Source: an uncultured Candidatus Bathyarchaeia archaeon (GTDB lineage: Archaea > Thermoproteota > Bathyarchaeia > TCS64). Taken from it: a stretch of DNA of 64,000 nt. The stretch is from NCBI GenBank assembly GCA_964587735.1, contig CAZPMB010000002.1:1736-65735 (forward strand), written 5' to 3'. Made by a program: the position numbers and the translations under genes. Below are positions 5,324-27,306 of this stretch, one piece after another. The stretch's first letter is position 1. Each line of letters starts with the position of its first letter. The notes under the pieces were generated by a model. The model worked only from the letters and a program-made list of their open reading frames with translations. It searched no databases and was not told the origin of the DNA.

Positions 5324-6457
5324 TTGAATTCGAGGATAATCCGTGTGATAGGGACGGCTCTTCTTCCCCTTCACCACGGCCGCGCGCCCAGGTGGCTCTT
5401 CAGCAGGATGGTGAAGCTTGCGGAGTGCATCGTCGAGATCATCGTCCGCGAGCACGGGGTCAGAGGCCTCCTCGAGCGCCTCTCGGACCCATGGTTCTTC
5501 CAGTCCCTCAGCTGCGTCCTCGGCTACGACTGGCACTCCAGCGGAACCACCACGGTTACTTGCGGGGCCTTGAAGGAAGCAATCAATCCTGGGGAGATGG
5601 GCGTGGCTGTCGCCGGGGGTAAGGGCAGGGCCTCACGTAAAGCGCCGGCCGAGATAGAGGAGCAGGGCCTGGGCTTCGGACTAAGCACTGGCAGGATCCA
5701 GGAGCTCCAGTACGCGAGCAGGATGGCCGCGAAGGTGGACAACAACCTCGTCCAAGACGGCTACGACATCTACCACCACACATTCGTCTTCGACGAGGTG
5801 GGCCGGTGGATAGTCATACAGCAGGGTATCAACGAGGCAGAGGGAAACGCCAGGCGCTATCACTGGCCACCGGAGCACAGGGACTTCATCGAGGAGCCTC
5901 AAAACGCCATCCTCTGCGACAGCCGCATCCCGGCAGTACTAGACATGACCTCCGCCAAGAGCACCGACAGCCGCAGAGCCTGCGTGGACCTAGCCAGGGA
6001 GGACCCTCGGCTTCTGAGACGAATGCTGGTCGCCGCGAGGCCAATCCACCAGAGATCGCTGGGAGAGTGGATGACTGGGGGCAGCCACAACGAGGTTCTT
6101 ATAATGCCGAGGCGAATAAACTGGGAGGCGATGAAAGAGGTCTACGAGTTCCAGCCGCGGAGCTATGAGGAGCTGGTCTCCCTCCGGGGCGTGGGCTCCT
6201 CAACCATTCGCGGCCTTGCTCTGGTCGCTGAACTGGTATACGGGCAACCCCCCAGCTGGCGGGACCCGGTCCGCTTCAGCTTCGCTTTCGGGGGCAAGGA
6301 TGGCGTCCCCTTTTCCGTTGACAAAGGGGGGATGGACGGGGCAGTGGAACTTCTGAGGGCCGGCGTCGAGGAGACTAGATTGGGGCGCGAGGAAAAGCTC
6401 AGGGCCATACGGAGGCTGAGGGGCTGCGTGCCTCCAATCCCGGAGGACAGAGGCTGA
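5324..6457 (+). CDS. DUF763 family protein
   Basis: LPLHHGRAPRWLF ... DPWFFQS motifs characteristic of archaeal DUF763. TTG start. Confidence 0.5.
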   Translation: MNSRIIRVIGTALLPLHHGRAPRWLFSRMVKLAECIVEIIVREHGVRGLLERLSDPWFFQSLSCVLGYDWHSSGTTTVTCGALKEAINPGEMGVAVAGGKGRASRKAPAEIEEQGLGFGLSTGRIQELQYASRMAAKVDNNLVQDGYDIYHHTFVFDEVGRWIVIQQGINEAEGNARRYHWPPEHRDFIEEPQNAILCDSRIPAVLDMTSAKSTDSRRACVDLAREDPRLLRRMLVAARPIHQRSLGEWMTGGSHNEVLIMPRRINWEAMKEVYEFQPRSYEELVSLRGVGSSTIRGLALVAELVYGQPPSWRDPVRFSFAFGGKDGVPFSVDKGGMDGAVELLRAGVEETRLGREEKLRAIRRLRGCVPPIPEDRG

Positions 6458-7527
6458 TGTCCTCGGAGCTTAGCTTGAACGAGGCCATACAAAATGTTCC
6501 GATCACCCGAGATGCGGCTGAGGTCATACTATCGCTAAAAAAGATCCCATCCGGTCTTCTGGAATTGGCTGGGGCAGTACGGGACAGCCGCCTCGGCAGG
6601 GAACTCCGGTTCTACTACCCCCTCCCACGGTTCCCGAACGTCTCCGTGACGGGGGACAGGTGCTCGTTGAGGTGCAAGCACTGCGGCGGATACTATCTGC
6701 GGGGGATGACGAGCGTCGAGACTCCCTCCAAGTTGAAGAAGTTCTGCACCAAGCTGGAGGCGGATGGGGGAGTCGGCCTCCTAATCAGCGGAGGCTCCGA
6801 CAGGAAAGGGAGGGTCCCCCTCGACCGGTTCTACAACGCGTTTAGGTGGGTGAAGGAGAACACGGGCCTCATCGTCAACGTCCACACCGGGCTGCTGGAC
6901 CCTGGGCAGGCGGATGGGATCGCCTCGACTGGCATCGACATTGCGTCCGTTGACGTCGTGGGCAGCGACGAGACCATCAGGCGAGTCTACGGCCTGAAGG
7001 CTACGAAGGAGGACTACTCGGGAACCCTGGAATCGCTGAAGAATGCGGAAGTCCCCCACGTCATCCCTCACATATGTGTCGGCCTCGACTTCGGGGAGAT
7101 CGGGGGGGAGGTGGCTGCCTTGGAGATAGCCAAGAAGATAGACCCAGAGCTGGTCGTACTCCTAGAGCTTATGCCGACTCAGGGGACGGCGATGGAGGCT
7201 GTGAAGCCGCCCTCAGCCGAGGAAATGGCGATGGTCGTGGCTGCGGCGAGGCTGATGTGCCCTGGGGCCGGCATCGCCCTGGGCTGCATGCGCCCCAGAA
7301 CTGGCAAGGACAGGGTAGAAGAACTGGCGTTAGAGGCGGGGGTCGACAGGATCGTCCTTCCCTCAAGATCAACGGTCGAAAGGGCGGGGATTGCGGGTTT
7401 CAGCGTCAGGCATTTGGACGGATGCTGTGCGATTCCCAAGAGCCTCGAGGGCCGAGCGCTAAGGCTTGGTGGCTCCCAGGCTCATCTCCAGAACGTGAAT
7501 GAAGTCCCCGGGCGAGACGCCTATTAG
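6457..7527 (+). CDS. Radical SAM protein, candidate LipS1/LipS2-type lipoyl synthase component
   Basis: CSLRCKHCGG (Cx3Cx2C) radical SAM motif. Sits convergent to and overlapping the split lplA genes. Start overlaps the stop of the upstream DUF763 gene. Confidence 0.5.
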   Translation: MSSELSLNEAIQNVPITRDAAEVILSLKKIPSGLLELAGAVRDSRLGRELRFYYPLPRFPNVSVTGDRCSLRCKHCGGYYLRGMTSVETPSKLKKFCTKLEADGGVGLLISGGSDRKGRVPLDRFYNAFRWVKENTGLIVNVHTGLLDPGQADGIASTGIDIASVDVVGSDETIRRVYGLKATKEDYSGTLESLKNAEVPHVIPHICVGLDFGEIGGEVAALEIAKKIDPELVVLLELMPTQGTAMEAVKPPSAEEMAMVVAAARLMCPGAGIALGCMRPRTGKDRVEELALEAGVDRIVLPSRSTVERAGIAGFSVRHLDGCCAIPKSLEGRALRLGGSQAHLQNVNEVPGRDAY

Positions 7528-7746
7528 GTCTACTGAGCGGCTCCCGAAGAAGACCTTAACGGCTTTCTCCAGCGACCCCCTCTCGGCTGGGAGGCCTGCG
7601 AGGGCGCCCTCGAGCTCCTCTATCGACTCCTCAGGGTGCATGAAGAAGTCGCCTGTGATCTTGACCCTGGCCAGGCGGCCTCGCTCGACCCTCGTCTCCG
7701 CAACGATCAGCTTCCCACCGGGTACCTTGAACTCGAAACGCCCCAA
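7459..7746 (-). CDS. Lipoate-protein ligase C-terminal domain protein (LplB / Lpl-C)
   Basis: 95-aa protein immediately downstream of LplA-N, as in Thermoplasma-type split LplA. The KITGDFF motif is typical of the LplA C-terminal domain. Confidence 0.6.
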   Translation of the reverse strand: MGRFEFKVPGGKLIVAETRVERGRLARVKITGDFFMHPEESIEELEGALAGLPAERGSLEKAVKVFFGSRSVDLIGVSPGDFIHVLEMSLGATKP

Positions 7747-7750
7747 GGAC

Positions 7751-8524
7751 CTACCTCCTGAATATCCAATCGTGGGAGCGATACCTCTCCCTGAACTTCT
7801 CCATCAGCCCCTCCTCGTAGGGGGTGAGTTCCCCGGGCTCGAGGCGGACGTCGAGGGTCTCCTCGAAACCCGTTACGAGGGCCCTGCGCACCTCGTCGAA
7901 GGAGATGTCGCGCCCCAGCTCACGGCGGATGCTAGTCACCCTCTCCTCCGCTGCCTTGATCATCTTGTCGCTGATCTTCGTGTCTGAGACCTTTAGCACG
8001 GTGAAGATCTTCTTGACGTCACAGTCAACTAGGACCGTGCCGTGCTGCAGGACGGAGCCATAGCGGCGGGTCTGGGCGTTGCCCGAGATCTTCCTGCCCC
8101 CCGAGACTATATCGTTTATCGGCTTGAACTCGGCCTCCAGTCCAAGCGCCCTCAGCCCCCTGATCAAGCATCCGCATATCAGTCTGTAGGATGAGACGAT
8201 GTCCTTAGGAATCTTAGGGTCGTCGTCAGGGGCGATGAGGCTGTAGGTGATCTCCCCGTCGTAGTCGTGGAAGACGGCCCCCCCGCCAGTTATGCGGCGG
8301 ATCACGTCTACTCCGAGGCGGCGGCAGGACTCGAGGTCAACCTCGTCCCTCATGCTCTGGAAGTATCCCACAGACACCGCGGAGGGGTTCCACCTGTAAA
8401 ACCTGACGGTGTTGGGCGTCTCCCCCATCCTCCTAGCGTAGGCTATGGATTCGTCTATGCCCATCTGGGTATAGGCGTCCTCGACCCTCATATCGATCAA
8501 GCGCCATTTCTCACTCATTTTCAT
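7751..8524 (-). CDS. lplA: Lipoate-protein ligase A, catalytic N-terminal domain (Lpl-N)
   Basis: BPL/LPL catalytic domain: RRxTGGGAVFHD, YRWNP. 257 aa lacking the C-terminal domain, which is encoded separately downstream. Confidence 0.8.
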   Translation of the reverse strand: MKMSEKWRLIDMRVEDAYTQMGIDESIAYARRMGETPNTVRFYRWNPSAVSVGYFQSMRDEVDLESCRRLGVDVIRRITGGGAVFHDYDGEITYSLIAPDDDPKIPKDIVSSYRLICGCLIRGLRALGLEAEFKPINDIVSGGRKISGNAQTRRYGSVLQHGTVLVDCDVKKIFTVLKVSDTKISDKMIKAAEERVTSIRRELGRDISFDEVRRALVTGFEETLDVRLEPGELTPYEEGLMEKFRERYRSHDWIFRR

Positions 8525-9509
8525 TCAACCCTATCAGTGCGGCCTCCCTTTGCGCCTCCTCCAGGGTCAGGCCCCACGGGTAGTTGTAGAACGGACCCGA
8601 CGGTCGTTCGTTATAGTAGGGCCGATTGCAGCCCGGGCAGCCGCTGGTCCGGAAAGCCTCCCCCTCAATCAGGGCCATTCGAATGGTCTCTGCGTCCGCT
8701 CCTGGGTCCTTCAGCTTCCCACCCTCGTCGAACTCCATGTCCTCGAATCGGGTCAGCCCTTGCGTCACAAGGTACCTTGCGAGTTGGACGCGACGATAGG
8801 CCTCCAAGGGAGGCTGGGGGCGATCGACGAGGGTGGTGCCCGGCACGGGTGTGAAGGCGTATAAAGCAGTCCGGATCTTCATGTCCAACAACTGTTGAAT
8901 AAGCCTAACGGCCTCCTCCTCCGTCTCCCCTAGGCCGACGATGAGGTTGGAATAGACCTTTCCCTCGCCGAAAACCTCGACAGCGGTCCTTAACGCCTTC
9001 ATGTGCTCCTCCCAGCTGTAGGGCCCACCAGCGGACCTCCCCTTTACCTCGTCGAAGAGTTTCGGCGTCGCAGCATCCAGCGGTATGCTGATCCGATCAA
9101 GGCCGGCCTTCTTCAGCCTCTCCATGTTGCTCCTGCCCAATGGGGGAGTGTCGAGCGAGACCGGGAGCCCAGTTGCATCCCTGATCTCTCTCAGCAGCGC
9201 GAGTACGTCATCGATGAACCCGGGGTAGTTGATCGCTTGGATGCATACCCTTTCGATGATTTTCTCAGCGGGTCGCATAAGCCCGTGAATAAATTTCTCC
9301 GTGGGGAAGGCTGGCCAGATGACCCTCGACAAAAGGGACTTCTTCGAGATGCTCCCTCGGGCCTGGGGGCAGAACGCGCAGTTCGCCGTGCAACTGCCCT
9401 CCGTGTAGGTCATTGTGTAGGCGGTCGTGGGCTTCGCGTCGAGCCAGCACTCTGTAAGCCCCAGAACTGAGGCCGTGCCGATGCTGACCCTCAGCCATTT
9501 GGGAATCAA
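8511..9509 (-). CDS. Radical SAM protein, candidate LipS1/LipS2-type lipoyl synthase component
   Basis: CTANCAFCPQ (Cx3Cx2C). Overlaps the lplA-N start by 14 nt (same operon). Second radical SAM in the lipoylation cluster. Confidence 0.5.
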   Translation of the reverse strand: MIPKWLRVSIGTASVLGLTECWLDAKPTTAYTMTYTEGSCTANCAFCPQARGSISKKSLLSRVIWPAFPTEKFIHGLMRPAEKIIERVCIQAINYPGFIDDVLALLREIRDATGLPVSLDTPPLGRSNMERLKKAGLDRISIPLDAATPKLFDEVKGRSAGGPYSWEEHMKALRTAVEVFGEGKVYSNLIVGLGETEEEAVRLIQQLLDMKIRTALYAFTPVPGTTLVDRPQPPLEAYRRVQLARYLVTQGLTRFEDMEFDEGGKLKDPGADAETIRMALIEGEAFRTSGCPGCNRPYYNERPSGPFYNYPWGLTLEEAQREAALIGLNENE

Positions 9510-9669: not shown

Positions 9670-9984
9670 TTAACTCTTTATCCAAGTGTGGTGGCACTTT
9701 GCACAGGTGAAGCGTTCCACGGCCCTATCCTGTTTGACGCCGGCGTGCTCTCCCATGGTCGTTATCACCTTACGGTAGGCCTCGTTGTGCCCGCAATTTG
9801 GACACCTCTGCATCACCCTCAGAGACCCTTCGCCTGTGTTCTCGACGACGTAGACCGGCTCTGCAGTGGGCCTTTCCGACCTCCTAACCTCGATCACATC
9901 CTGGTGAACCTCTCTTCCGCATCTAGGGCATAAGAGGCCCTTTACCGTCCTCCGCATGTACGAGCCGCATACATCGCAGAACAT
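9670..9984 (-). CDS. TFS / RpoM (Rpb9)-like double zinc-ribbon protein
   Basis: N-terminal C-x2-C...C-x2-C ribbon (MFCDVCG...CPRCG) and C-terminal TFIIS-type ribbon (CPNCG...CAKC...W), 104 aa. The inter-cysteine loop lacks the canonical RSADE acidic hairpin. Confidence 0.5.
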   Translation of the reverse strand: MFCDVCGSYMRRTVKGLLCPRCGREVHQDVIEVRRSERPTAEPVYVVENTGEGSLRVMQRCPNCGHNEAYRKVITTMGEHAGVKQDRAVERFTCAKCHHTWIKS

Positions 9985-10116: not shown

Positions 10117-10395
10117 ATGACCGTAACGCGCACTCACCTGTATATCTCGGGTCGGGTCCAGGGTGTCAATTTCCGCTACTTTGTCAGGCAAGAGGCCCTG
10201 AGGCTCGGCCTTGCAGGGTGGGTGAGGAACCTCCCAGACGGCAGGGTCGAGGTCGTCGCCGAGGGGGAGGAGGAACAGGTGGAGAGGCTCATAGGATGGT
10301 GCCGAAGGGGGCCGCCACTCGCCATGGTAAGGGGTCTTGATATTCGAAGGGAGCCGACTACAGGAGACTTGAAGACATTCACGATCAGGCTCTGA
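10117..10395 (+). CDS. acyP: Acylphosphatase
   Basis: VQGVNFRYF and [17 protein letters not shown] motifs. 92 aa. Confidence 0.85.
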
Positions 10396-10457: not shown

Positions 10458-10688
10458 ATGGAATACAGGCGTCTCGAGGGAGACGAGGCGGTCGAGCTGA
10501 TCCTTCTGGTCCTTAGGGATGCGGGTAGGCCTATGACCACTAGGGAGATCCAAGCGGAGACGGAGAAGAGACTGGTCAGGTGCCCAGACTCGACCGTGGT
10601 CTTCCTGAACAGACTCAGGAACAAGGGAGTGATAAAGGGCGAGCGCTCCAAGGAGAAGCGAGGCTGGGTCTGGTGGGTGGAGGACTAA
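10458..10688 (+). CDS. Small winged-helix DNA-binding protein
   Basis: 76 aa with an HTH-like RPMTTREIQAETEKRL core. No family assignable. Confidence 0.35.
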   Translation: MEYRRLEGDEAVELILLVLRDAGRPMTTREIQAETEKRLVRCPDSTVVFLNRLRNKGVIKGERSKEKRGWVWWVED

Positions 10689-10981
10689 AACCAGGAAACG
10701 ATCTTATCGGCGGTCTCTATAAGACTGACCCATCTCTTGTAATCTATGGGCTCTACGCCTTCGGCCACCTTATCCCAAGAGCCCTCCGACCTGAAGTGAG
10801 GCTCTAGGTAGAATACTCCTTTGGCGTATCCGAGAGACCTGACAAGCCCGTGGTCTGTTGCGTGGCGGCAACCGTCGTATTCGAACACGAAAAGCAATCG
10901 GTCCTTCTTCGCAATCTCCTTGGCCACTTTGAAGGCGGTAGATCCTTCCTGCATCCGACCTATTAAGAAGAGGACGTTCAT
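10685..10981 (-). CDS. DsrH/TusB-like protein
   Basis: 98 aa. Third gene of a DsrE-DsrF-DsrH ordered triad. DsrE/F/H fold-sized, no active Cys motif. Confidence 0.4.
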   Translation of the reverse strand: MNVLFLIGRMQEGSTAFKVAKEIAKKDRLLFVFEYDGCRHATDHGLVRSLGYAKGVFYLEPHFRSEGSWDKVAEGVEPIDYKRWVSLIETADKIVSWF

Positions 10982-10992
10982 CTCATCATGCC

Positions 10993-11337
10993 TCAGAATG
11001 TGACTGTCGAACTACATTCTGCCATCATCTCGGCCAGCCCTCGAATGTCGATCGTTGTGATATTGAGGTCTGGGTCGAGATCCTCAATCCTCAGGCAATT
11101 TTCTTCAAGCGACTCCACGAGAACTTGTATCCCAGCTAGATCAGCCGAGGTGCGGAGGTAGTCCCTATTTGTGGAGTCCTGGAGGGCCCCAGGGAGCAGG
11201 CATTTGACTCCCTCGTCCAGGTGGACGATGCGTGGCGCTCTGTCCATCCCCAGCATTGCAGCGCAGAGCCGGAGGCCGTCGGCGACCCTCCGCACGTCCT
11301 CTGGTCCGCTCCTAATAATGACCATCACATCGACCAT
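10993..11337 (-). CDS. DsrF/TusC-like protein
   Basis: 114 aa, DsrE/DsrF family size and hydrophobic core pattern (MVDVMVIIRSGP...). Middle gene of the triad. Confidence 0.45.
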   Translation of the reverse strand: MVDVMVIIRSGPEDVRRVADGLRLCAAMLGMDRAPRIVHLDEGVKCLLPGALQDSTNRDYLRTSADLAGIQVLVESLEENCLRIEDLDPDLNITTIDIRGLAEMMAECSSTVTF

Positions 11338-11346
11338 CCACGTTCA

Positions 11347-11688
11347 CTACCCCAGAAAGATCGTCTTTTCGCTCCCCTCGATGAGCTCAACCAGTTCGGC
11401 GAGGCTGCTCAGCCCCGCACCTCTCACCAGATCCCTCAGGTACTCCAGCCCTCTCATAGCGGCGCTTGTCCTGCATACGAGAAGCCGCACCCCCCCTGGC
11501 GTGAGGCGCTCGATATCCTTGTTGGCCCTTCCCGACCTTACGAGCTGAACAGAATCCCCGTCAAGGAAAACAGTGACGTCGTGCCCCCTTTCCCTGGCGG
11601 CGCTGGAGAGGCCTATGATCGTCTCCTTTACCACCTTCAAATCCGAATGTGCGACGAGCAGCAGGTGCATTGGTGCTTTCTCCTTCAC
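11347..11688 (-). CDS. DsrE/TusD-like sulfurtransferase
   Basis: 113 aa, LLLVAHSD N-terminus and conserved Cys in VCRTSAAMRG, consistent with the DsrE/TusD active-site cysteine. First gene of the triad. Confidence 0.5.
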   Translation of the reverse strand: MKEKAPMHLLLVAHSDLKVVKETIIGLSSAARERGHDVTVFLDGDSVQLVRSGRANKDIERLTPGGVRLLVCRTSAAMRGLEYLRDLVRGAGLSSLAELVELIEGSEKTIFLG

Positions 11689-11815
11689 GGATTAATATTT
11701 CGTTGTTGTCTTAACCTTTTCAGCACGGTTTTCGGATGGTGTTCCATACTTTCGAACGGGTGTTCGAAAACCTAGGATTAAGTATCATTGAAAGTACCTA
11801 TATGGCGGTGATGAA

Positions 11816-13768
11816 TTGAGGCTACCTGCCTTCGCAATCTACCTGAACACTAGGAAGCTGGCCACATATACGATCCTCGCGTTCGTCCTGGGAGGCATGC
11901 TCGGGGGCGCGATGTGGAACTTCGGCGGCGTATACGTGCCAAAGCGCCCTACCGCGACCTCGTTTGAGTTTGGATCTCTAAACCGATTCACATCCTACGA
12001 TGAATTGAGGATTTTCCTGAGGACGCAGACCTCAAATGTTTGGGGTCGTGTTTATTTCGACTCAGTCACCTCGCCATTTTCTGCACTGACTGCAGCACAA
12101 TCGGCCAAAGCAGCTGCAGACGCCGCCAAAGGGGAAATATCAGGCATGAACGACTTTTCAGGAACGAACATTCAGGTCGAGGGCGTGGATGAGGCTGACG
12201 TGGTGAAGACGGACGGTGAGTACATATACCTCGCCGTGAACGACACGGTCGTGATTGTGAAGGCCTATCCTCCGGAGGACGCCGAGGTCGTCGCCAGGAT
12301 CAGGCTCTACCACTCGGTGCAGGACCTGTTTGTGTCGGCGGACAAACTTGTGGCGTTCATCCCATTGTACCAGGAGGTTTACAGCGAGCTGCTGGGCCCG
12401 GAGCCGTCCCCCGAGTTCGAGTTGAGAACGGACATACTCGTGTACGACATCTCCGACAGGGGGTCCCCGCAGAAGGAACGAGAGGTAACTGTTGATGGAT
12501 TCTACTTCGACTCCAGGATGATCGGCGATTATGTCTACGCCATAGTGATAGAGGCCGCCAGAATATACAAGGACGAGGTGCTGCTCCCGTGCCTCTCCTC
12601 CGAGAGCATCCGGAGAATGCCTCTCGGCCTCGTGACTGAGAGGCTGTGGCGGAAGGTCGAGCCCACCGATGTCTACTACATAAACCAAACGGACACCGGG
12701 TTCTGCTACACCAACCTCCTCGCGATCAACGCACAGGACCCCGAAGAGTCAGTTACGCTGGAGACATTCCTCCTCGGAGAAGCAGCCAACCTGTATGTCT
12801 CCATGGGCAACATCTACATCACGGCGAGGAGGTCGCATGGAGTAACAACGATCTATAAGATCGCCATCGACGGGGGTAGTGTCACCTACGCAGCCGATGG
12901 CTCAGTTCCAGGGTGGGTGCTGAACCAGTTCTCCATGGACGAGCACGAGGGCTACTTCAGGATAGCCACGACCAACGGGCATGTGCGGAGATTCGGAGGC
13001 CAACCGAGCAACAATATCTACGTCCTCAACGAGACCCTAGGAATCGTTGGCAGTCTTGAGGGCCTCGCGCCAGGAGAGGAGATCTACTCGGCCAGGTTCA
13101 TGGGCGATAGGGGCTACCTCGTCACGTTCAAGAAGGTCGACCCCCTGTTCGCCATCGACCTCTCCGATCCTGAAGAGCCGAGGGTGCTGGGCAAGCTGAA
13201 GATCCCGGGCTACTCCGACTATCTGCACCCATACGACGAGAACCACCTGATAGGGCTAGGCAAGGAGACGGTCGAGGCTGAGGGGGGCAACTTCGCCTGG
13301 TACCAGGGCATCAAGATCTCCCTCTTCGATGTCACGAACGTCTCGGCGCCTGTCGAGCAGGCTAAGATCGTTATAGGCGACAGGGGGTCCGACTCCCCGG
13401 CGCTCAGCGACCACAAGGCCTTCCTCTTCAGCCGGGCCAGGAACCTCCTCGTCGTGCCCATCCTTGTCGCCGAGATAGACGAGAGCCGCTATTCTGGCCC
13501 CATCCCGCCGGACATGTACGGCGAATACGTCTTCCAGGGTGCCTACGTCTTCGATATATCCCTGGAGTCCGGGATCACGATCAGGGGGAGGATCACACAC
13601 CTCGAGGGCTCGGAGGACCTGCTGAAGAGCGGCTACTGGTTCGATTCGGAATACACCGTCGAGAGGAGCCTATACATCGAGGAGGTGCTCTACACCCTCT
13701 CCGGCAGGATGATCAAGATGAACAGCCTTGCAGATCTTTCGGAGCTGGGCAAGGTCGAAATATCCTAA
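11816..13768 (+). CDS. Secreted or membrane-anchored beta-propeller domain protein (COG4880-like)
   Basis: N-terminal signal-anchor (TYTILAFVLGGMLGGAMW) followed by a 600-aa region with repeated blade-like segments. Resembles archaeal PF09826-type beta-propeller proteins. Confidence 0.5.
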   Translation: MRLPAFAIYLNTRKLATYTILAFVLGGMLGGAMWNFGGVYVPKRPTATSFEFGSLNRFTSYDELRIFLRTQTSNVWGRVYFDSVTSPFSALTAAQSAKAAADAAKGEISGMNDFSGTNIQVEGVDEADVVKTDGEYIYLAVNDTVVIVKAYPPEDAEVVARIRLYHSVQDLFVSADKLVAFIPLYQEVYSELLGPEPSPEFELRTDILVYDISDRGSPQKEREVTVDGFYFDSRMIGDYVYAIVIEAARIYKDEVLLPCLSSESIRRMPLGLVTERLWRKVEPTDVYYINQTDTGFCYTNLLAINAQDPEESVTLETFLLGEAANLYVSMGNIYITARRSHGVTTIYKIAIDGGSVTYAADGSVPGWVLNQFSMDEHEGYFRIATTNGHVRRFGGQPSNNIYVLNETLGIVGSLEGLAPGEEIYSARFMGDRGYLVTFKKVDPLFAIDLSDPEEPRVLGKLKIPGYSDYLHPYDENHLIGLGKETVEAEGGNFAWYQGIKISLFDVTNVSAPVEQAKIVIGDRGSDSPALSDHKAFLFSRARNLLVVPILVAEIDESRYSGPIPPDMYGEYVFQGAYVFDISLESGITIRGRITHLEGSEDLLKSGYWFDSEYTVERSLYIEEVLYTLSGRMIKMNSLADLSELGKVEIS

Positions 13769-13890
13769 AGGCTAGTCATATACTGGAGGGAAGAGGTTAA
13801 AGGGGGCTTGGGGCGACGGGCTCGAAGAGGATCTACGGGAAGACCTGGGACGTCTACCTCTGCATCCTCACATCGAACGGGCCCGTCGGC

Positions 13891-14253
13891 GTGAGGGAGA
13901 TCTGGAGGGCCCTGGACCTCTCCAGCCCGAGCCTCGCACAGTACCACGTGAACAAGCTCCTAGACCTGAAGCTTATAGAGCCCGTTGAGGGGAAGTACAA
14001 GGTCAACGAAGAGGAGAAGCTCGAGGCTCTCAGGAGTTTCCTCATGCTCAGGGGGATGCTTATCCCCAGGATGGTGATCTACGGTGCCCTCCTCTCCGGA
14101 ATCTTCCTATCATATACTATCCTGTGGCCCTGGAGGGGCGATTTCAGGGACCTCGTAACACTCGCAGTCTGCTTCTTCAGCACCCTAGCATTCTTCTACG
14201 AGGCATATAGACAGTACCATGGGCTCTCGATATTCAAAATCGATGAGAACTAA
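13891..14253 (+). CDS. Membrane-associated winged-helix regulator (HTH plus 2 TM helices). True start probably upstream (open frame from 13801)
   Basis: Frame is open from 13801 and encodes KRIYGKTWDVYLCILTSNGPVGVREIW... (HTH), but the first canonical start codon is GTG at 13891. Two C-terminal hydrophobic helices. Confidence 0.45.
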   Translation: MREIWRALDLSSPSLAQYHVNKLLDLKLIEPVEGKYKVNEEEKLEALRSFLMLRGMLIPRMVIYGALLSGIFLSYTILWPWRGDFRDLVTLAVCFFSTLAFFYEAYRQYHGLSIFKIDEN

Positions 14254-14360
14254 AAGGTGCTAATCTCCGGAATAACTGTCATCATTATTTACATCTATTT
14301 TGAGCAAACCTCGATAATTATTTCGCATCTTATTTACACTGAATTTTGCCTGGGGTATCC

Positions 14361-14368
14361 TTTAAAAA
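14361..14368 (+). promoter_or_regulatory. Candidate TATA box (TTTAAAAA) for the hypCD operon. Spacing predicts a leaderless or near-leaderless hypC mRNA
   Basis: TTTAAAAA centred about 26 nt upstream of the hypC ATG at 14391. Confidence 0.35.
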
Positions 14369-14390
14369 TTGCCATGTGAATTCAAAGGGG

Positions 14391-14618
14391 ATGTGCCTCG
14401 CGATACCAGGAAAGGTCCTGAAGATAGACGGCAGGACTGCGAGGGTCGACTTCGGATACGGTGCTACTCGTGAGGTGGACATCACTCTCGTCGATGTGAG
14501 AGTCGGCCAGTACGTGCTGGTCCACACGGGCTACGCAATCCAAGTGCTGGACGAGGAGGACGCCCTGGAGACCCTCCGGCTCTGGAAGGAGATGCTGGAG
14601 TACACGGAGCCGGCGTAG
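14391..14618 (+). CDS. hypC: [NiFe]-hydrogenase maturation factor HypC
   Basis: Begins MCLAIPGKV (invariant Cys2). 75 aa. The track ORF starts at an upstream in-frame TTG, but the HypC family starts at MC. Confidence 0.85.
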   Translation: MCLAIPGKVLKIDGRTARVDFGYGATREVDITLVDVRVGQYVLVHTGYAIQVLDEEDALETLRLWKEMLEYTEPA

Positions 14619-14641
14619 AACTTATTTTGGGGTGAGGACGC

Positions 14642-15718
14642 ATGAAAGAGTTCTCGGGTTTCAAGGACCGGAACGTAGCCGAGCTGCTGCGAGTGAGGAT
14701 CGGTGAGCTCGCCTCCCCTGAGAAGGTGAAGATCTGCCACGTCTGCGGAACCCACGAGTGGACGATTACCCACTCGGGGCTGAGGGACCTCCTTCCGGAT
14801 AATGTCTCCCTAATAGCAGGGCCAGGGTGCCCGGTGTGCATCGTCCCAGCCCGCGAGATCGACGAGGCCGTCTGGCTGGCTCAAAACGGGTTAACAGTTG
14901 CGACCTTCGGCGACATGTTCCGCGCACCCGGGTCCGATCTTTCCCTCAGCAACGCCTGCGGGCGGGGTGCAAAGGTGAGGGTGGTCTACAGCGTAAGAGA
15001 TGCCGTAGCGATGGCAAGGAGAGAGCCGGGAAGGGAGTTTGTCTTCTTCGCGATAGGCTTCGAGACCACCACCCCGATGAACGCCGTCGAGATCCCAGGT
15101 TGCCCAGAGAACTTGAGCTTCCTGACGAGCCACAGGCTGATACCGCCGGCGATGGAGTTCCTCGCCGAGATGCCCGGCCTGAACATAGACGGCTTTATCG
15201 CCCCGGGGCACGTCTCCACGATCATCGGCGAGAGGCCCTACAGGATGTTCCCGGAAAAATACGGGATGCCCACGGTCATCGCCGGATTCGAGCCGCTGGA
15301 CGTGCTCATGGCCGTCTACATGCTCCTCAAACAGATACGGGAAGGCAGACCAAGGCTTGAGAACGAGTACTCCAGGGTCGTGACGTACGGGGGGAACATC
15401 AAGGCGCAGAAGGCGATGTCAGACGTGTTCGACATTTCCGACGGCGCATGGAGGGGAATTGGTGCGATCCCCTCCTCGAGCCTGAAGCTGAAAGAGGAGT
15501 TCTCTCGAAAGGACGCGAGGAAGAGATACGAGATAGATGTTGGCCCGGGCAGGGACATAATTCCGGGCTGCAGCTGCCACCTCGTCATCGTCGGGAAGAT
15601 CGAGCCGGACAAGTGCCCCCTGTTCATGAAAGCTTGCACTCCCGAGAGGCCGAAGGGGGCCTGCATGGTCAGCAGCGAGGGGACCTGCAGGATCTGGGCG
15701 TACGAAGAAGGGTCATAG
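14642..15718 (+). CDS. hypD: [NiFe]-hydrogenase maturation factor HypD
   Basis: CHVCGTHEW, GPGCPVC, FAIGFETTTP and C-terminal CxH/Cys cluster motifs. Confidence 0.9.
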   Translation: MKEFSGFKDRNVAELLRVRIGELASPEKVKICHVCGTHEWTITHSGLRDLLPDNVSLIAGPGCPVCIVPAREIDEAVWLAQNGLTVATFGDMFRAPGSDLSLSNACGRGAKVRVVYSVRDAVAMARREPGREFVFFAIGFETTTPMNAVEIPGCPENLSFLTSHRLIPPAMEFLAEMPGLNIDGFIAPGHVSTIIGERPYRMFPEKYGMPTVIAGFEPLDVLMAVYMLLKQIREGRPRLENEYSRVVTYGGNIKAQKAMSDVFDISDGAWRGIGAIPSSSLKLKEEFSRKDARKRYEIDVGPGRDIIPGCSCHLVIVGKIEPDKCPLFMKACTPERPKGACMVSSEGTCRIWAYEEGS

Positions 15719-18049
15719 ATCCTTCAGGGACGCCACAACGGCCTGACCGAGGGAGGTCCCGCCATCCCCCGGAGGGACCTGCCTGTGACGGATGAACCTT
15801 AGGCCCATACCCTCCACCCTCTTCCTGATCACACTGTTCAGCATCTCGTTGTAGGCAACGCCACCAGAGAAGCCGACCGTCCCCAGACCGTACTTCTCTG
15901 CGGCTGAAATCGCCATTTTAGACAAGCCCTCGGCGACTGCCAAATGCAGGGCGCTAGCTAGTACTCCTTCATCATGCCTTTCCCTGAGCTCAAACAGCCT
16001 CCTGAACATCTGGGATGTCTTCAGAACCAACACGCCCTTCTCATCAATCACCTCGACGGGGAGATCGACTCCATTTGATGATGCAGCCGCTACTGCCTCG
16101 AGCTTCATTGCGCCCTCCCCCTCGTAAGTCCTCCCATAAGAGACGCCAAGGAGGCAGGCTGCGGCATCTAGGATCCTGCCCACGCTAGTGGTCATTGGGG
16201 TGTTGAGCCCCTTGTCGAGCTGGGCGAAGACGGCGTCGATCTCCCTCTCGCCATGCTTGTAGCCCTCTAGGCAGCTCTGCGAGAGGAACTCCCTCAGCTC
16301 ATCCCTTGGCAGCTCGCTATACAGGATACCCTGAAGCATCCTACCGTACCTGATGGCACTGAGGTCCCCGCCCGGCATGGGCTGAGGTTCTAGATGCCCA
16401 GCTCGCCTAAAGCCCCTGTAACCACCGACCAGAATCTCGCCGCCCCATGCGGAGCCGTCGCTCCCATAACCGTACCCGTCGCACATCGCGCCAACGATCT
16501 CCTTCCCCGGCTCGAGGCCGTTCTCCGCCATGACCGCGGCGAGGTGGGCGTGGTGGTGCTGGACCTCGACAAGGGGGACACCGTGCTCCTCCGCGATCTC
16601 GGCGGCCACCGTCCTTGAAAGGAAGTTTGGGTGGAGATCGCAGGCCACGGCGTCCGGCTTCTCAAGCCTCAGGAGCTTCGTCATGTGGTCGATGGCCTCC
16701 CTCAGGAAGGCAAGGGCCCCAGGGCTCTCGACGTCGCCCAGGTGCTGGGTCGGGTAGCACTTGTCCTCCTTGAGGACGCATGCAGTGGATGCGAGCTCGG
16801 GGCCCACAGCCACGACATTCCTTATCGAGGTAAATGGGAGGTGCACGGGAAGGGGGACGTAGCCCCTGGACCTTCTGAGGAATAATGGGTTCCCGTCGAC
16901 CACCCTGATGACGGAGTCGTCGCACCTCGCGCATATCTCGCGGTCGTGGAGGAGGAGGTAGTCGGCAATGTCTCCCAGCCTCTCGAACGCCTCGCGGTTC
17001 GAGACCGCCATGGGCTCTCCAGGGAAATTCGCGGAGGTCATGACCAGCGCCGGCTCCTCGCTGTAGCGGAATAAAACGTGGTGCATCCCCGAGTAGGGCA
17101 GCATAGCCCCGACCGTGTTGAGATCGGGGGAGATGTAAGGAGAGAGCGGGAAGGGCTCCAGCTTTCTGAGAGCCACTATCGGCCTCGCTAGGGAGGTGAG
17201 GAGCCCTCTCTCACGCCCGGAGATCAGGGCGTATTCCTCGATCTCCTTCAGGCTCGGGCTCATGATGGCGAAGGGCTTACCGGGCTTCCTCCTCCTTTCC
17301 CTGAGCAAAATAAGGGCATCGTCCTCCGTTGTCTTCGTCGCTAGGTGTATGCCGCCTATGCCCTTGATGGCCAGCACGCTGCCCTCGTACAGCAGGCCCG
17401 CGGCCACTCTTAGGGGAGCATCGTCATCGACTACCGACCCGTCAGGGGCGTAAAGAGTCATCCTCGGCCCGCACTGGGGACAGCAGATCGTCTGGGCATT
17501 GAACCGCCTGTCCGGGGGGCCGTGGAATTCTTCGCTGCAGTCCCCGCAGAGGGGGAACTCGGCCATCGTCGTCCTCTCCCTGTCGTAGGGGATGTCTGTT
17601 ATCGTCGTGAACCTTGGGCCACAGATGGCGCAGCACGTGAAGGGGTAGAGGTAGTGCCTGTCACCGGGGTCGAGGAGCTCCCTGAGGCAGTCGTCGCAGA
17701 TGGCCGCGTCCGACGGGATGAGGGAGTGCTTCACCTCAATCCTCCCCATGTCGCTGTCGTCGATGGAGAAGACGGGGTACTCGCCGCTGTAATCCAGCCA
17801 TTCGACGTCGATCCTGGTATAGACGGCGACCGGGATCCTCTCATCCTCCAAGCCCCTCAGGAAATCCCTGATGGCGTCTTCCTCGCCGTTAACATCGATC
17901 CTAACCCCAGCGTCCCCCATGTTCTTAACGTAGCCCCTCAGTCCCCTTTTCACAGCCAGCCTGTAGACAAAGGGTCTGAAGCCTATGCCCTGTACGAGGC
18001 CCTGGACGGTGACGATGGCTCTCCTCTTCAAGATCTCAGCCCGTTCCAC
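15713..18049 (-). CDS. hypF: Carbamoyltransferase HypF
   Basis: 778 aa with N-terminal acylphosphatase domain (VQGIGFRPF), two CxxC zinc-finger pairs, YrdC-like and Kae1-like domains. Confidence 0.9.
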   Translation of the reverse strand: MERAEILKRRAIVTVQGLVQGIGFRPFVYRLAVKRGLRGYVKNMGDAGVRIDVNGEEDAIRDFLRGLEDERIPVAVYTRIDVEWLDYSGEYPVFSIDDSDMGRIEVKHSLIPSDAAICDDCLRELLDPGDRHYLYPFTCCAICGPRFTTITDIPYDRERTTMAEFPLCGDCSEEFHGPPDRRFNAQTICCPQCGPRMTLYAPDGSVVDDDAPLRVAAGLLYEGSVLAIKGIGGIHLATKTTEDDALILLRERRRKPGKPFAIMSPSLKEIEEYALISGRERGLLTSLARPIVALRKLEPFPLSPYISPDLNTVGAMLPYSGMHHVLFRYSEEPALVMTSANFPGEPMAVSNREAFERLGDIADYLLLHDREICARCDDSVIRVVDGNPLFLRRSRGYVPLPVHLPFTSIRNVVAVGPELASTACVLKEDKCYPTQHLGDVESPGALAFLREAIDHMTKLLRLEKPDAVACDLHPNFLSRTVAAEIAEEHGVPLVEVQHHHAHLAAVMAENGLEPGKEIVGAMCDGYGYGSDGSAWGGEILVGGYRGFRRAGHLEPQPMPGGDLSAIRYGRMLQGILYSELPRDELREFLSQSCLEGYKHGEREIDAVFAQLDKGLNTPMTTSVGRILDAAACLLGVSYGRTYEGEGAMKLEAVAAASSNGVDLPVEVIDEKGVLVLKTSQMFRRLFELRERHDEGVLASALHLAVAEGLSKMAISAAEKYGLGTVGFSGGVAYNEMLNSVIRKRVEGMGLRFIRHRQVPPGDGGTSLGQAVVASLKDL

Positions 18050-18106
18050 ATTCGGTCGTTAGACGTTCTTTTTTACCCGTTGAAGGGTGTCTTTAAAACG
18101 ATTCCC

Positions 18107-19272: not shown

Positions 19273-19680
19273 ATGCACGAGTGGGCCTTGGCCGAGGGCG
19301 TAGTCTCCACCGCCACCAAGATCGCAGAGGAACAGGGGCTGGAAGAGGTCACGGAGGTGACAGTCAGGATAGGCGAGCTCCAGCAGATAGAGCACGAAGT
19401 CTTCAGTTTCGCTCTCGAGCAGCTCAGGACGCCTGTGATGAAGAACGCAAAGTTCGTCCTCGAGACGATCCCCGGAAAGTTGAGATGCCGGGCATGCGGC
19501 AAGGAGTGGCTCTTCAGCCCGGAGGCGCTGGGCGATGAGGTCTCGGAGGCCATCCACTTCGTTCCGGAGGTAGCCCACGTCTACGTCAAGTGCCCGAGCT
19601 GTGGGAGCCCGGACTTTGAGATCATCGAGGGGCGGGGAGTCATCCTGGCCTCTATTAAGGGGGTGAAGGGAAGTGATTGA
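19273..19680 (+). CDS. hypA: Hydrogenase nickel incorporation protein HypA
   Basis: MHEWALAEGVV N-terminus (MHE Ni site) and CRACG...CPSCG zinc ribbon. Confidence 0.85.
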   Translation: MHEWALAEGVVSTATKIAEEQGLEEVTEVTVRIGELQQIEHEVFSFALEQLRTPVMKNAKFVLETIPGKLRCRACGKEWLFSPEALGDEVSEAIHFVPEVAHVYVKCPSCGSPDFEIIEGRGVILASIKGVKGSD

Positions 19681-20410: not shown

Positions 20411-20629
20411 GAAGGATCTTAGAGGGACAAGGATATTGACTGCTCAGAGTCTCAGAGCTCCATTTACGATATGTAATGAGGATCTACTTCTCTGCGCGTG
20501 ATAACTGCACAAAATTCCGCTATTAAACTGGCGTATATGCTAGCATTAAAAGCCCTTTACTGGACTCCTTGCCCTCCGTCACCCGTAGGATTTATCCATC
20601 GCCATATATCATGGAAGGGGAGGATACCC

Positions 20630-24313: not shown

Positions 24314-24384
24314 GAGGTGAGCCCCATCGCCTCTATGGCCCCTTACGCATAACATCCGCGCCGTCTAAAGGTGGTCAATATCGT

Positions 24385-27300: not shown

Positions 27301-27306
27301 ATAATA

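What the first reader, a model, noticed from the sequence alone, without database searches (positions are those of the whole stretch)
10685..11688. DsrE-DsrF-DsrH (TusD-C-B)-like sulfur-relay triad located between the lipoylation and hydrogenase/Hdr clusters
Three consecutive small genes (113, 114 and 98 aa) occur in dsrE/dsrF/dsrH order. The first carries a conserved Cys in a DsrE-like context (VCRTSAAMRG). In sulfur-oxidising bacteria and Sulfolobales, DsrE-type proteins, lipoate assembly genes and Hdr-like complexes co-occur as one functional system (sHdr). Here the Hdr is of the hydrogenase-linked type. The trio recurring in this context hints at a sulfur-carrier/lipoate link to heterodisulfide metabolism in this archaeon.
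Basis: inference. Interest (0 to 1): 0.55.

Follow-up and report, generated by a model that had tools for sequence, protein, structure and literature searches.

The report
Bathyarchaeal DsrEFH-like sulfur carrier with partner
The three small genes are a real but very divergent DsrEFH/TusBCD-type sulfur-carrier set found throughout Bathyarchaeia; their constant companion is an undescribed 76-residue cysteine-bearing winged-helix gene, not the neighbouring lipoate or heterodisulfide-reductase genes.

Summary
On the minus strand lie three tightly packed genes: E-like 11347-11670, F-like 10993-11337 and H-like 10685-10981. Family profiles hit solved DsrE/TusD, DsrF/TusC and DsrH/TusB one-to-one. 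The E-like Cys66 (LLVCRTSA) aligns with the active Cys78 of DsrE/TusD and is kept in at least 90% of relatives.

The interpretation does not hold. The lipoate genes (LipS1, LplB, LplA, LipS2) and the Mvh-type Hdr genes are real. However, they adjoin the trio only in near-identical strains. A relative with the same backbone lacks the lipoate block. No LbpA, TusA or DsrC/TusE was found. Published sHdr systems use homotrimeric DsrE3-type proteins, not E-F-H trios.

What is conserved is a four-gene module. A 76-residue winged-helix gene (orf76, 10458-10688, plus strand) lies tail-to-tail with the H-like gene. It has invariant Cys42-Pro-Asp and three invariant Trp. Among loci found through orf76 alone, 78 of 78 show the H-like gene and 50 of 50 show the whole trio. 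All named relatives are Bathyarchaeia.

Best reading: a lineage-specific persulfide carrier whose acceptor or sensor is orf76. I rate it a new variant of a known kind, of moderate interest.

The parts
11347..11670 (-). E-like subunit gene (DsrE/TusD-like, 107 aa). The maximal ORF extends to GTG 11688. The active-site candidate Cys66 is codon 11473-11475, in the motif LLVCRTSAAMRG.
   Evidence: Pfam PF02635 at 37 bits. Family profile hits 2hy5_A at 1.2e-10 and 2d1p_A at 1.9e-8, with the Cys aligned to Cys78. AF2 pLDDT 95; best fold match is DsrE. Cys conserved in at least 90% of relatives. Start supported by homologues and a ribosome-binding site.
10993..11337 (-). F-like subunit gene (DsrF/TusC-like, 114 aa). 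No conserved cysteine.
   Evidence: PF02635 matches end to end at 18.9 bits, below cutoff. Family profile hits 2hy5_B DsrF at 4e-5 and 2d1p_B TusC at 8e-3. Alignment A4. BLAST links it to second-subgroup proteins for which Pfam records DsrE.
10685..10981 (-). H-like subunit gene (DsrH/TusB-like, 98 aa). It ends in the conserved IVSW motif. The DsrH Cys20 equivalent is not conserved.
   Evidence: PF04077 at 18.5 bits and TIGR03011 at 27 bits, both below cutoff. Family profile hits 2hy5_C DsrH at 1.1e-7 and 2d1p_C TusB at 4e-6. Alignment A5.
10458..10688 (+). orf76: a 76-aa stand-alone winged-helix protein, convergent with the H-like gene and overlapping its 3' end by 4 bp. It has invariant Cys42-Pro43-Asp44 (Cys codon 10581-10583) at the N-cap of helix 3, and invariant Trp70, Trp72 and Trp73 in the wing.
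   Evidence: Alignments A3/A6. AF2 pLDDT 83, with helix-helix-helix and a two-strand wing. Foldseek gives only generic winged-helix hits. No Pfam or NCBIfam family passes cutoff. Linkage to the trio is 78/78 and 50/50, with further cases.
11708..11721 (-). BRE/TATA-like promoter element of the E-F-H operon (GAAAAGGTTAAGAC), about 40 nt upstream of the ATG.
   Evidence: GGGGAAA..TTAAG is the only strongly over-represented motif upstream of E-like genes. It occurs in 22 of 45 dereplicated loci, against a maximum of 10 in shuffles.

Best explanation
The three genes encode a heteromeric DsrEFH/TusBCD-type sulfur-carrier complex, probably stacked E-F-H rings as in the solved complexes. Cys66 of the E-like subunit is the only conserved cysteine. 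By analogy with DsrE and TusD, it would carry sulfane sulfur as a persulfide and hand it to a partner.

The complex belongs to a divergent clade confined, as far as sampled, to Bathyarchaeia. It forms an invariant four-gene module with orf76. This minimal winged-helix protein has an invariant Cys42 at the N-terminus of its third helix.

I propose that orf76 is the direct partner of the complex. It would either accept the persulfide, filling the TusE/DsrC or TusA role that is otherwise missing, or sense it, with persulfidation of Cys42 switching DNA binding.

The module is present across Bathyarchaeia whatever the flanking genes are, and no dissimilatory sulfur genes were found near it. I therefore infer a housekeeping role in sulfur trafficking or sulfane-sulfur homeostasis rather than energy metabolism.

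Shown:
- Homology of each subunit.
- Conservation and position of the cysteine.
- The gene linkage.

Inferred:
- Complex assembly.
- Persulfide chemistry.
- The role of orf76.
- The final sulfur destination.
For: - Subunit-specific profile hits to DsrE/TusD, DsrF/TusC and DsrH/TusB.
- DsrE fold at pLDDT 95, with Cys66 at the strand-helix junction as in DsrE.
- Cys66 is at least 90% conserved or invariant. No cysteine is conserved in the F-like or H-like proteins. This matches published results that only DsrE/TusD Cys78 binds sulfur (PMC3397948).
- Operon-like spacing of 9 and 11 nt.
- The orf76 linkage holds in 78 of 78 loci (H-like gene) and 50 of 50 loci (whole trio), all recovered through orf76 motifs alone.
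- The linkage also holds in a second, more canonical Bathyarchaeal subgroup with entirely different flanks: TrmO, cation efflux and AspRS, or AsnC and LigD_N.
- orf76 is 59-93% identical across loci where the trio is only 24-87% identical.
- Cys42-Pro-Asp is invariant and caps helix 3.
- No TusA, TusE/DsrC, DsrAB or LbpA was found in the window or in 700 kb of related loci.
- All named relatives are Bathyarchaeia or Bathyarchaeota.
Against: - No biochemical data exist.
- Complex formation could not be modelled, because no multimer tool was available.
- orf76 is convergent with the trio, not co-transcribed, and has its own promoter.
- Its fold matches DNA-binding domains of MarR, PadR, BlaI and Fur regulators rather than any known sulfur carrier. 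It may be an ordinary local regulator.
- No operator shared by all loci was found upstream of the E-like gene.
- The trio fails NCBIfam TusBCD/DsrEFH equivalog cutoffs.
- Conserved adjacency within one class could partly reflect shared ancestry.
Confidence: 0.55

Rival explanations
1. One reading: the trio is the sulfur-transferase arm of an sHdr-like system that connects lipoate assembly (LipS1/LipS2/LplAB) with the neighbouring Hdr complexes.
For: The genes are close together in this window and in L001, L002 and L026. LipS1, LipS2 and LplB pass NCBIfam cutoffs. There are four HdrB/HdrC pairs and several HdrA-like genes within 27 kb. Published sHdr systems do combine DsrE-type proteins, lipoate genes and Hdr-like proteins (PMC11094781).
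Against: - Adjacency is confined to near-identical strains. Only 1 of the 80 orf76-anchored loci shows it, and 36 of those loci have enough flank to see it. None of the distant GTDB or annotated loci shows it.
- L053 lacks the lipoate block in the same backbone.
- No LbpA or TusA was found (and the Pfam scans).
- The Hdr genes here are fused to or adjacent to MvhD and a [NiFe] hydrogenase.
- sHdr partners are homotrimeric DsrE3/E2/E4 proteins, not E-F-H trios.
- LipS1/LipS2 is described in the sHdr literature cited as a lipoate-assembly route. I also recall it as a general archaeal lipoyl-synthase route (my own knowledge).
Confidence: 0.05
2. A TusBCD-type biosynthetic relay for thiolation of tRNA or another cofactor. 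The trio would pass sulfur to a thiouridylase-type enzyme. orf76 would be either irrelevant or the nucleic-acid-binding adaptor.
For: The gene order is the same as tusD-tusC-tusB, with significant profile hits to TusD, TusC and TusB. In the second subgroup the H-like protein passes the TusB equivalog-domain cutoff at 60.6 bits against 49.2. In L021 and L022 the module sits beside TrmO and aspartyl-tRNA synthetase genes. An archaeal tusBDCA operon has been reported in Methanoperedens elements (PMC13444090). The class-wide distribution suggests a housekeeping role.
Against: No TusA, TusE or MnmA-type gene lies in any neighbourhood examined. In my recollection (own knowledge), archaea make s2U34 with NcsA and ubiquitin-like sulfur carriers rather than with TusBCD. 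The tRNA-related neighbours occur only in two related contigs.
Confidence: 0.2
3. A dissimilatory DsrEFH, either type I or the recently described type II. It would feed sulfane sulfur to DsrC and DsrAB for sulfur oxidation or disproportionation.
For: The best solved-structure matches are A. vinosum DsrE, DsrF and DsrH. The short E subunit has its active Cys at position 66, similar to Cys67 of DsrE type II (PMC13293266).
Against: - No dsrAB, dsrC, dsrMK, qmoAB, tusA or yeeE is in the 64-kb window or in any locus.
- DsrH Cys20, essential in vivo in type I, is not conserved (PMC3397948).
- A survey of Bathyarchaeia MAGs reports dsrE only, without dsrC (PMC11631310).
- Archaeal type II sets are described next to dsrMK or qmoAB, and Bathyarchaeia are not mentioned.
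Confidence: 0.07
4. orf76 is simply a local transcription factor, and the trio is a sulfane-sulfur buffer or detoxifier under its control. No sulfur would be transferred to orf76.
For: The fold is winged-helix, closest to MarR, PadR, BlaI and Zur DNA-binding domains. There is a sub-threshold Penicillinase_R hit. Sources annotate it automatically as a transcriptional regulator. It has its own promoter. One-cysteine redox-sensing winged-helix regulators are known (own knowledge).
Against: No operator motif is common to all E-like promoters. There is no dimerisation domain in 76 residues. It is conserved far more strongly than its presumed target. The arrangement is convergent and overlapping rather than divergent.
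Confidence: 0.25

Closest known systems
DsrEFH type I (Allochromatium vinosum, PDB 2HY5) and TusBCD (E. coli, PDB 2D1P)
   Same: There are three paralogous small subunits in the same gene order. Each subunit's family profile hits its cognate solved subunit. The E subunit has the DsrE fold. A single conserved cysteine aligns with the sulfur-binding Cys78.
   Different: - Identity is only about 15-20%, and the trio falls below NCBIfam equivalog cutoffs.
- The E subunit is about 20-30 residues shorter.
- DsrH Cys20 is not conserved.
- No DsrC/TusE, TusA, DsrAB or MnmA lies nearby.
- The trio is instead linked invariably to a winged-helix protein.
- The host lineage is Bathyarchaeia.
DsrEFH type II (cable bacteria and sulfate reducers; PMC13293266, 2026)
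   Same: This is also a divergent E-F-H trio that standard annotation misses. Its E subunit is short, with the active Cys at about position 67.
   Different: Type II sets lie next to tusA and yeeE in bacteria, or next to dsrMK or qmoAB in archaea, and co-occur with reductive dsrAB. None of these is near the Bathyarchaeal module. Sequence membership could not be tested because no type II sequences or HMMs were available.
sHdr-associated sulfur transferases (DsrE3A/B/C, DsrE2, DsrE4 with TusA and LbpA; PMC11094781)
   Same: They belong to the DsrE superfamily and have one conserved sulfur-binding cysteine. DsrE3A (3MC3) is the third-best PDB hit of the E-like profile at 7.7e-8.
   Different: Those proteins are homotrimers encoded by single genes inside shdr clusters, together with tusA and lbpA. 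Here there is a heteromeric E-F-H set. There is no tusA or lbpA, and no conserved linkage to hdr or lipoate genes.
Second Bathyarchaeal E-F-H subgroup (loci L021-L023; 117-120-aa E subunit)
   Same: It has the same four-gene module, including an orf76 homologue at 59-66% identity. It also has the same active Cys context, (A/I)C(R/M)ESA.
   Different: It is closer to the canonical proteins. Pfam recognises all three subunits, and TusB passes its cutoff. The E subunit has an insertion of about 10 residues. The flanking genes are different.
Small winged-helix regulators (MarR, PadR, BlaI/MecI, Fur/Zur DNA-binding domains)
   Same: orf76 has the three-helix plus two-strand-wing fold.
   Different: It is only 76 residues long, with no dimerisation or sensor domain. 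No family HMM passes its cutoff. It carries an invariant Cys-Pro-Asp helix cap and a Trp-x-Trp-Trp wing.

Membership tests
DsrE/DsrF/DsrH superfamily (Pfam PF02635, PF04077) | Significant match of each protein to the family models | tested here: met
   The E-like protein passes the PF02635 cutoff at 37 bits against 22.7. The F-like and H-like proteins fall below the single-sequence cutoffs at 18.9 and 18.5 bits. Their family profiles, however, hit DsrF at 4e-5 and DsrH at 1.1e-7 in the PDB.
DsrEFH type I / TusBCD heterohexamer | Three adjacent genes in E(D)-F(C)-H(B) order, each matching its cognate subunit | tested here: met
   Gene order and spacing are shown. The best PDB hit of each family profile is the cognate subunit.
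DsrEFH type I / TusBCD heterohexamer | Conserved sulfur-binding cysteine equivalent to DsrE/TusD Cys78 | tested here: met
   Cys66 aligns with Cys78 of 2hy5_A and 2d1p_A. It is at least 90% conserved or invariant.
DsrEFH type I / TusBCD heterohexamer | Scores above the NCBIfam equivalog cutoffs (TIGR03012, TIGR03010, TIGR03011) | tested here: not met
   The E-like protein has no hit. The F-like protein scores 12.3 bits against 94.15, and the H-like protein 27 bits against 49.2.
DsrEFH type I / TusBCD heterohexamer | Conserved DsrH Cys20 (essential in vivo in A. vinosum) | tested here: not met
   No cysteine is conserved at this or any other position of the H-like family. The requirement is from PMC3397948.
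DsrEFH type I / TusBCD heterohexamer | Alpha2-beta2-gamma2 assembly | not testable with these tools
DsrEFH type I / TusBCD heterohexamer | Partner DsrC/TusE and TusA, and downstream DsrAB or MnmA, present | tested here: inconclusive
   None is in the window or in 700 kb of related loci (Pfam scans; tblastn).
DsrEFH type II (PMC13293266) | Match to the type II HMMs or sequences | not testable with these tools
   No type II sequences or HMMs are held. The supplements contain none.
DsrEFH type II (PMC13293266) | Synteny with tusA/yeeE (bacteria) or dsrMK/qmoAB (archaea), and co-occurrence with reductive dsrAB | tested here: not met
   None of these genes is in the window or in the annotated loci. 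The feature is defined.
sHdr-LbpA sulfur-oxidation system | LbpA (GcvH-like lipoate-binding protein) and TusA encoded with the cluster | tested here: not met
   No such ORF was found by the Pfam scans of window ORFs or by tblastn. The feature is defined.
sHdr-LbpA sulfur-oxidation system | DsrE3/E2/E4-type homotrimeric transferase linked to shdrC1B1AHC2B2 | tested here: not met
   The gene set here is a heteromeric E-F-H trio. The Hdr genes are MvhD-fused or hydrogenase-linked. The sHdrA/sHdrH subtype itself was not tested phylogenetically.
sHdr-LbpA sulfur-oxidation system | Conserved co-localisation of the transferase genes with lipoate-assembly and hdr genes | tested here: not met
   Lipoate genes are adjacent only in L001, L002 and L026, which are the same or near-identical strains. 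Only 1 of the 80 orf76-anchored loci shows them, and 36 of those loci have at least 2 kb on the relevant side. Hdr-like genes are near only in L015.
Winged-helix transcription regulators (MarR/PadR/BlaI), tested for orf76 | Winged-helix fold | tested here: met
   The AF2 model has pLDDT 83, with helices at 8-22, 28-37 and 46-56 and wing strands at 60-64 and 69-73. Foldseek hits have probability about 1.0 but E no better than 3e-3.
Winged-helix transcription regulators (MarR/PadR/BlaI), tested for orf76 | Family HMM above cutoff, and a dimerisation or sensor domain | tested here: not met
   The best Pfam hit is Penicillinase_R at 19.7 bits against 22.6. NCBIfam gives nothing. The 76 residues contain only the winged-helix core.

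The most novel reading that the evidence does not exclude
The E-F-H trio and orf76 may form a self-contained, Bathyarchaeia-wide sulfur-trafficking system of a new design. In it, a minimal winged-helix protein takes persulfide sulfur from Cys66 of the E subunit onto its invariant Cys42. It would then act either as a new kind of carrier, delivering sulfur to a nucleic-acid or protein target in place of TusE/DsrC/TusA, or as a one-cysteine sulfane-sulfur switch.
Probability: 0.3. Interest if true: 0.65.

Novelty: new variant of a known kind. Interest (0 to 1): 0.5.

Why it matters
[quoted passage not shown] Metagenomic surveys record only 'dsrE' in them and build speculative polysulfide or Hdr scenarios on it (PMC11631310).

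Three results give a concrete, testable system:
- The gene is one of a complete E-F-H trio.
- The trio is a class-wide module.
- It is tied to a previously unnoticed cysteine-bearing winged-helix protein rather than to Dsr, sHdr, lipoate or Tus partners.

The result also guards against over-reading local gene proximity as an sHdr-like pathway. If orf76 proves to be the sulfur acceptor, it would add a new fold to the known persulfide carriers.

Tried and rejected
- Single-sequence searches of the three proteins against PDB sequences gave nothing significant. Family profiles were needed.
- The word-indexed homologue search with the single E-like protein found only two close hits. An exact-sequence lookup of the 113-aa ORF found nothing, consistent with the true start at 11670.
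- The search for related loci with the 34-sequence alignment failed for lack of a conserved stretch. It was repeated with 12 sequences.
- L017, from a betaproteobacterium, is a spurious partial hit.
- A weak tblastn match of TusA to 20860-21051 lies inside an HdrC-like protein and was judged to be chance.
- The supplements of the DsrEFH type II paper hold no sequences, so direct comparison was impossible.
- A search for an operator shared by all E-like promoters found only the BRE/TATA core.
- The GAACA/TGTTC palindromes track the beta-propeller neighbour, not the trio. I therefore rejected them as the universal orf76 target.
- Recurrent proximity of hypD and acylphosphatase genes was considered as a link to hydrogenase maturation. 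I set it aside because it is absent from the second subgroup and from many loci, and I know of no sulfur-relay step in [NiFe] cofactor assembly (own knowledge).
Full report
**1. What is there**

The interval 10685-11688 holds three consecutive minus-strand ORFs of 113, 114 and 98 aa. They are separated by 9 and 11 nt.

Homologues of the first protein are 107 aa long and begin MH/MR-LLLV. A GGAG-type ribosome-binding site precedes ATG 11670. The real gene is therefore 11347-11670.

Pfam places the first protein in PF02635 DsrE above cutoff (37 bits). The second matches PF02635 end to end but below cutoff. The third matches PF04077 DsrH below cutoff. NCBIfam TusBCD/DsrEFH equivalog models are not reached. 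Single-sequence searches of the PDB found nothing significant.

**2. Homology established with family profiles**

An exhaustive HMMER search of 1.84 billion representatives with the E-like protein found only 37 proteins at E ≤ 1e-3. This is a small, divergent clade.

I collected relatives of all three proteins from related loci and built family alignments (A1, A4, A5). Searched against PDB sequences, the profiles gave these hits:

| Family | Best hit | Second hit |
|---|---|---|
| E-like | DsrE 2hy5_A, 1.2e-10 | TusD 2d1p_A, 1.9e-8 |
| F-like | DsrF 2hy5_B, 4e-5 | TusC 2d1p_B, 8e-3 |
| H-like | DsrH 2hy5_C, 1.1e-7 | TusB 2d1p_C, 4e-6 |

The correspondence is one-to-one and in the dsrEFH / tusDCB gene order.

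In the E-like alignment the Cys of LLVCRTSAAMRG aligns with Cys78 of DsrE and TusD. This is Cys66 in the 107-aa numbering. It is at least 90% conserved in 34 sequences and invariant in 42.

An AlphaFold2 model of the E-like protein (pLDDT 95) places Cys66 at the end of strand 61-66 and the start of helix 67-72. The model matches DsrE 2hy5_A best (E 7e-8, TM 0.82).

The F-like and H-like families have no conserved cysteine. The equivalent of DsrH Cys20 is among those not conserved, although it is essential in vivo in A. vinosum (PMC3397948).

**3. Surroundings**

| Coordinates | Strand | Gene or family |
|---|---|---|
| 5324-6457 | + | DUF763 |
| 6457-7527 | + | LipS1 (265.6 bits, cutoff 230) |
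| 7459-7746 | - | LplB (77.7 bits, cutoff 65) |
| 7751-8524 | - | LplA-type catalytic subunit |
| 8511-9509 | - | LipS2 (338 bits, cutoff 270) |
| 9670-9984 | - | TFS-like zinc ribbon |
| 10117-10395 | + | acylphosphatase |
| 10458-10688 | + | orf76 |
| 10685-11670 | - | the E-F-H trio |
| 11816-13768 | + | PF09826 beta-propeller protein |
| 13891-14253 | + | orf120 (sub-threshold HTH hits; apparent hydrophobic C-terminal half) |
| 14346-19120 | mixed | HypC, HypD, HypF, HypE |
| 19673-20410 | + | ParA/NUBPL ATPase |
| 20498-24313 | + | HdrC, HdrB, HdrA-MvhD fusion |
| 24432-27300 | - | HycI, [NiFe] hydrogenase large and small subunits |
| 27307-38967 | mixed | three further HdrB/HdrC pairs, MvhD-like proteins, HdrA-like proteins up to 1000 aa |

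**4. Test of the proposed lipoate/Hdr link**

Ten loci from GTDB species representatives carry relatives at 40-49% E-like identity. All are Candidatus Bathyarchaeia or Bathyarchaeota.

BLAST of their ORFs against the window's proteins shows a conserved core:
- orf120 and the beta-propeller gene lie divergent from the trio.
- The E, F and H genes follow.
- orf76 lies convergent with the H-like gene.
- An acylphosphatase is often next, sometimes with HypD.

Lipoate and Hdr/Mvh genes are neighbours only in L001 and L002 (84% identical E-like protein). Pfam-annotated contigs tell the same story. These contigs also uncovered a second subgroup with a 117-120-aa E subunit, in which Pfam recognises DsrE, DsrE and DsrH. 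Its flanks are entirely different: TrmO, cation efflux, AspRS and P-type ATPases, or AsnC, LigD_N and ribosomal genes.

In 80 metagenomic loci retrieved through orf76, LplA and LipS2 appear only in L026, which is 99-100% identical to the window. Thirty-six of the 80 loci have at least 2 kb on the relevant side.

L053 keeps the AlaRac-DUF763 ... Zn-ribbon ... orf76 backbone but has about 1 kb where the window has the 3-kb lipoate block. The block therefore looks like a recent insertion beside the module.

No LbpA/GcvH-like, TusA or DsrC/TusE gene was found. The window ORFs were scanned with Pfam. tblastn searched the window and 700 kb of related loci.

According to PMC11094781, sHdr systems come with LbpA, TusA and homotrimeric DsrE3/E2/E4 proteins, whereas DsrEFH heterohexamers serve rDsr. 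The sHdr analogy therefore fails on both synteny and component type. The LipS1/LipS2/LplAB genes need no sHdr context to be explained.

**5. The conserved partner**

orf76 is a 76-aa ORF on the plus strand. Its stop overlaps the H-like stop by 4 bp. Homologues (59-93% identical in the aligned set) lie convergent behind the H-like gene in every distant locus of both subgroups.

The linkage is reciprocal:
- Contigs looked up through two orf76 homologues carry the trio.
- Among 80 metagenomic loci found through orf76 motifs alone, 78 of 78 with at least 120 bp downstream have the H-like gene. The median distance between the aligned ends is 6 bp, with one 646-bp exception.
- 50 of 50 loci with at least 1200 bp downstream have H, F and E in order.

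orf76 is much better conserved than the trio, which is 24-87% identical across loci.

Its invariant residues include Cys42-Pro43-Asp44, Phe49-Leu50-Asn51 and Trp70, Trp72 and Trp73.

The AlphaFold2 model (pLDDT 83) is a minimal winged helix. It has helices at 8-22, 28-37 and 46-56 and wing strands at 60-64 and 69-73, with Cys42 just before helix 3.

Foldseek finds only generic winged-helix domains: Hop2, MarR/ST1710, PadR, BlaI/MecI and Zur/Fur DNA-binding domains, with best E 3e-3. No Pfam or NCBIfam model passes cutoff.

All 156 homologues found are at least about 70% identical, and those with names are from Bathyarchaeota or MCG.

**6. Promoters**

The E-like gene has a conserved BRE/TATA-like element (GGGGAAA..TTAAG; window 11708-11721). 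It is the only strongly enriched upstream motif, present in 22 of 45 dereplicated loci against a maximum of 10 in shuffles. orf76 has its own ATAAAAGG-type element.

A perfect palindrome, TTCGAAC-GGGT-GTTCGAA, sits at 11751-11768. It is the only such site in the window, against 0.16 expected by chance. Similar GAACA/TGTTC half-sites recur in relatives, but only where the beta-propeller gene is the divergent neighbour. They are therefore not a universal operator for the trio.

**7. Mechanism**

*Shown:*
- Homology of each subunit to DsrEFH/TusBCD.
- A single conserved cysteine at the sulfur-binding position.
- Operon-like organisation of the trio.
- Invariant linkage to orf76.
- Restriction of the sampled relatives to Bathyarchaeia.

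*From established knowledge (PMC3397948):*
- DsrE/TusD Cys78 carries a persulfide and passes it to DsrC/TusE.

*Inferred:*
- The Bathyarchaeal proteins form a similar heteromer carrying sulfane sulfur on Cys66.
- orf76 is its acceptor or its sensor.
- The role is housekeeping sulfur trafficking or sulfane-sulfur homeostasis.

The housekeeping inference rests on two points. The module is class-wide and independent of flanking genes, and it has no dissimilatory sulfur genes near it.

I put about 0.75 on the sulfur-carrier function. I put about 0.4 on a direct functional coupling with orf76 beyond ordinary local regulation.

**8. Comparison and novelty**

The trio works like DsrEFH/TusBCD. It is not a member of the curated TusBCD/DsrEFH equivalog families and lacks DsrH Cys20.

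It resembles the recently described DsrEFH type II in its divergence and in the position of the active Cys (PMC13293266). It has none of that type's genomic associations, and sequence membership could not be tested.

The papers found in the library mention only 'dsrE' in Bathyarchaeia (PMC11631310). None mentions the F and H partners or orf76.

I classify it as a new variant of a known kind. Interest is moderate. The trio itself is expected biology, but the class-wide module with a new cysteine-bearing partner is a concrete lead. The sHdr-style reading should be dropped.

Noticed in passing
window 11751-11768 (intergenic region between the E-like gene and the beta-propeller gene): A perfect palindrome, TTCGAAC-GGGT-GTTCGAA, is the only such site in the window (0.16 expected by chance). 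Related GAACA/TGTTC half-sites, often three in a row, recur at the same place in relatives. They appear only where the PF09826 beta-propeller gene is the divergent neighbour, next to its TAATCCTAGG element. This is a candidate operator for that gene, possibly bound by the co-conserved orf120.
   Followed up: partly
window 6457-9509; compare L053:901-3318: The LipS1/LplB/LplA/LipS2 block (NCBIfam-verified) occupies about 3 kb between DUF763 and the Zn-ribbon gene. The relative L053 has the same backbone but only about 1 kb there and no lipoate genes. The block therefore looks like a lineage-specific insertion.
   Followed up: partly
window 11816-14253: A PF09826 beta-propeller protein (650 aa; its N-terminal stretch looks hydrophobic by eye) and orf120 (sub-threshold HTH hits at the N-terminus; apparent hydrophobic C-terminal half by eye) form a pair conserved across many Bathyarchaeal loci, divergent from the trio. 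The beta-propeller gene appears in 24 and orf120 in 16 of the 80 orf76-anchored loci.
   Followed up: no
window 10117-10395; L009-L011, L019, L025: A stand-alone acylphosphatase lies upstream of orf76 in 29 of 80 loci. In several loci it directly follows hypD. In the window, hypC and hypD instead lie on the other side of the module (14346-15718). The meaning of a free acylphosphatase beside hypD is unexplained, given that HypF has its own acylphosphatase domain.
   Followed up: no
window 20498-38967: This stretch is an unusually dense set of heterodisulfide-reductase-type genes. It holds four HdrB/HdrC pairs, an HdrA-MvhD fusion (776 aa), a 1000-aa HdrA-like protein with two flavin domains, two further HdrA-like proteins (566 and 440 aa) and two separate MvhD-like proteins (187 and 259 aa). 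One [NiFe] hydrogenase with its HycI protease is also present.
   Followed up: no
window 9670-9984 (minus strand): A 104-aa double zinc-ribbon protein resembles transcription factor S but falls well below the TFS equivalog cutoff (36 bits against 64.75). It is conserved next to the acylphosphatase in a few relatives (L026, L045, L052, L053).
   Followed up: no
L024:4865-5935: In one 759-kb Bathyarchaeal contig, an Aminotran_5 protein of 356 aa lies divergent from orf76. This Pfam family includes cysteine desulfurases (own knowledge). It might be a sulfur donor for the module, but it was seen in only this one locus.
   Followed up: no
L008 and L009 (same MAG, CAYGAH01): One MAG carries two different copies of the pairing of beta-propeller and E-like genes, with E-like proteins roughly two-thirds identical by eye. 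This is more likely a strain mixture in a co-assembly than true paralogy.
   Followed up: no
window 51203-51661 and 54818-56263: A C_GCAxxG_C_C putative redox-active protein, a Fer4_5 polyferredoxin-like membrane protein and a DsbD/CcdA-type thiol-disulfide transporter lie in the distal part of the window. They are thiol-redox genes unrelated to the trio by position.
   Followed up: no
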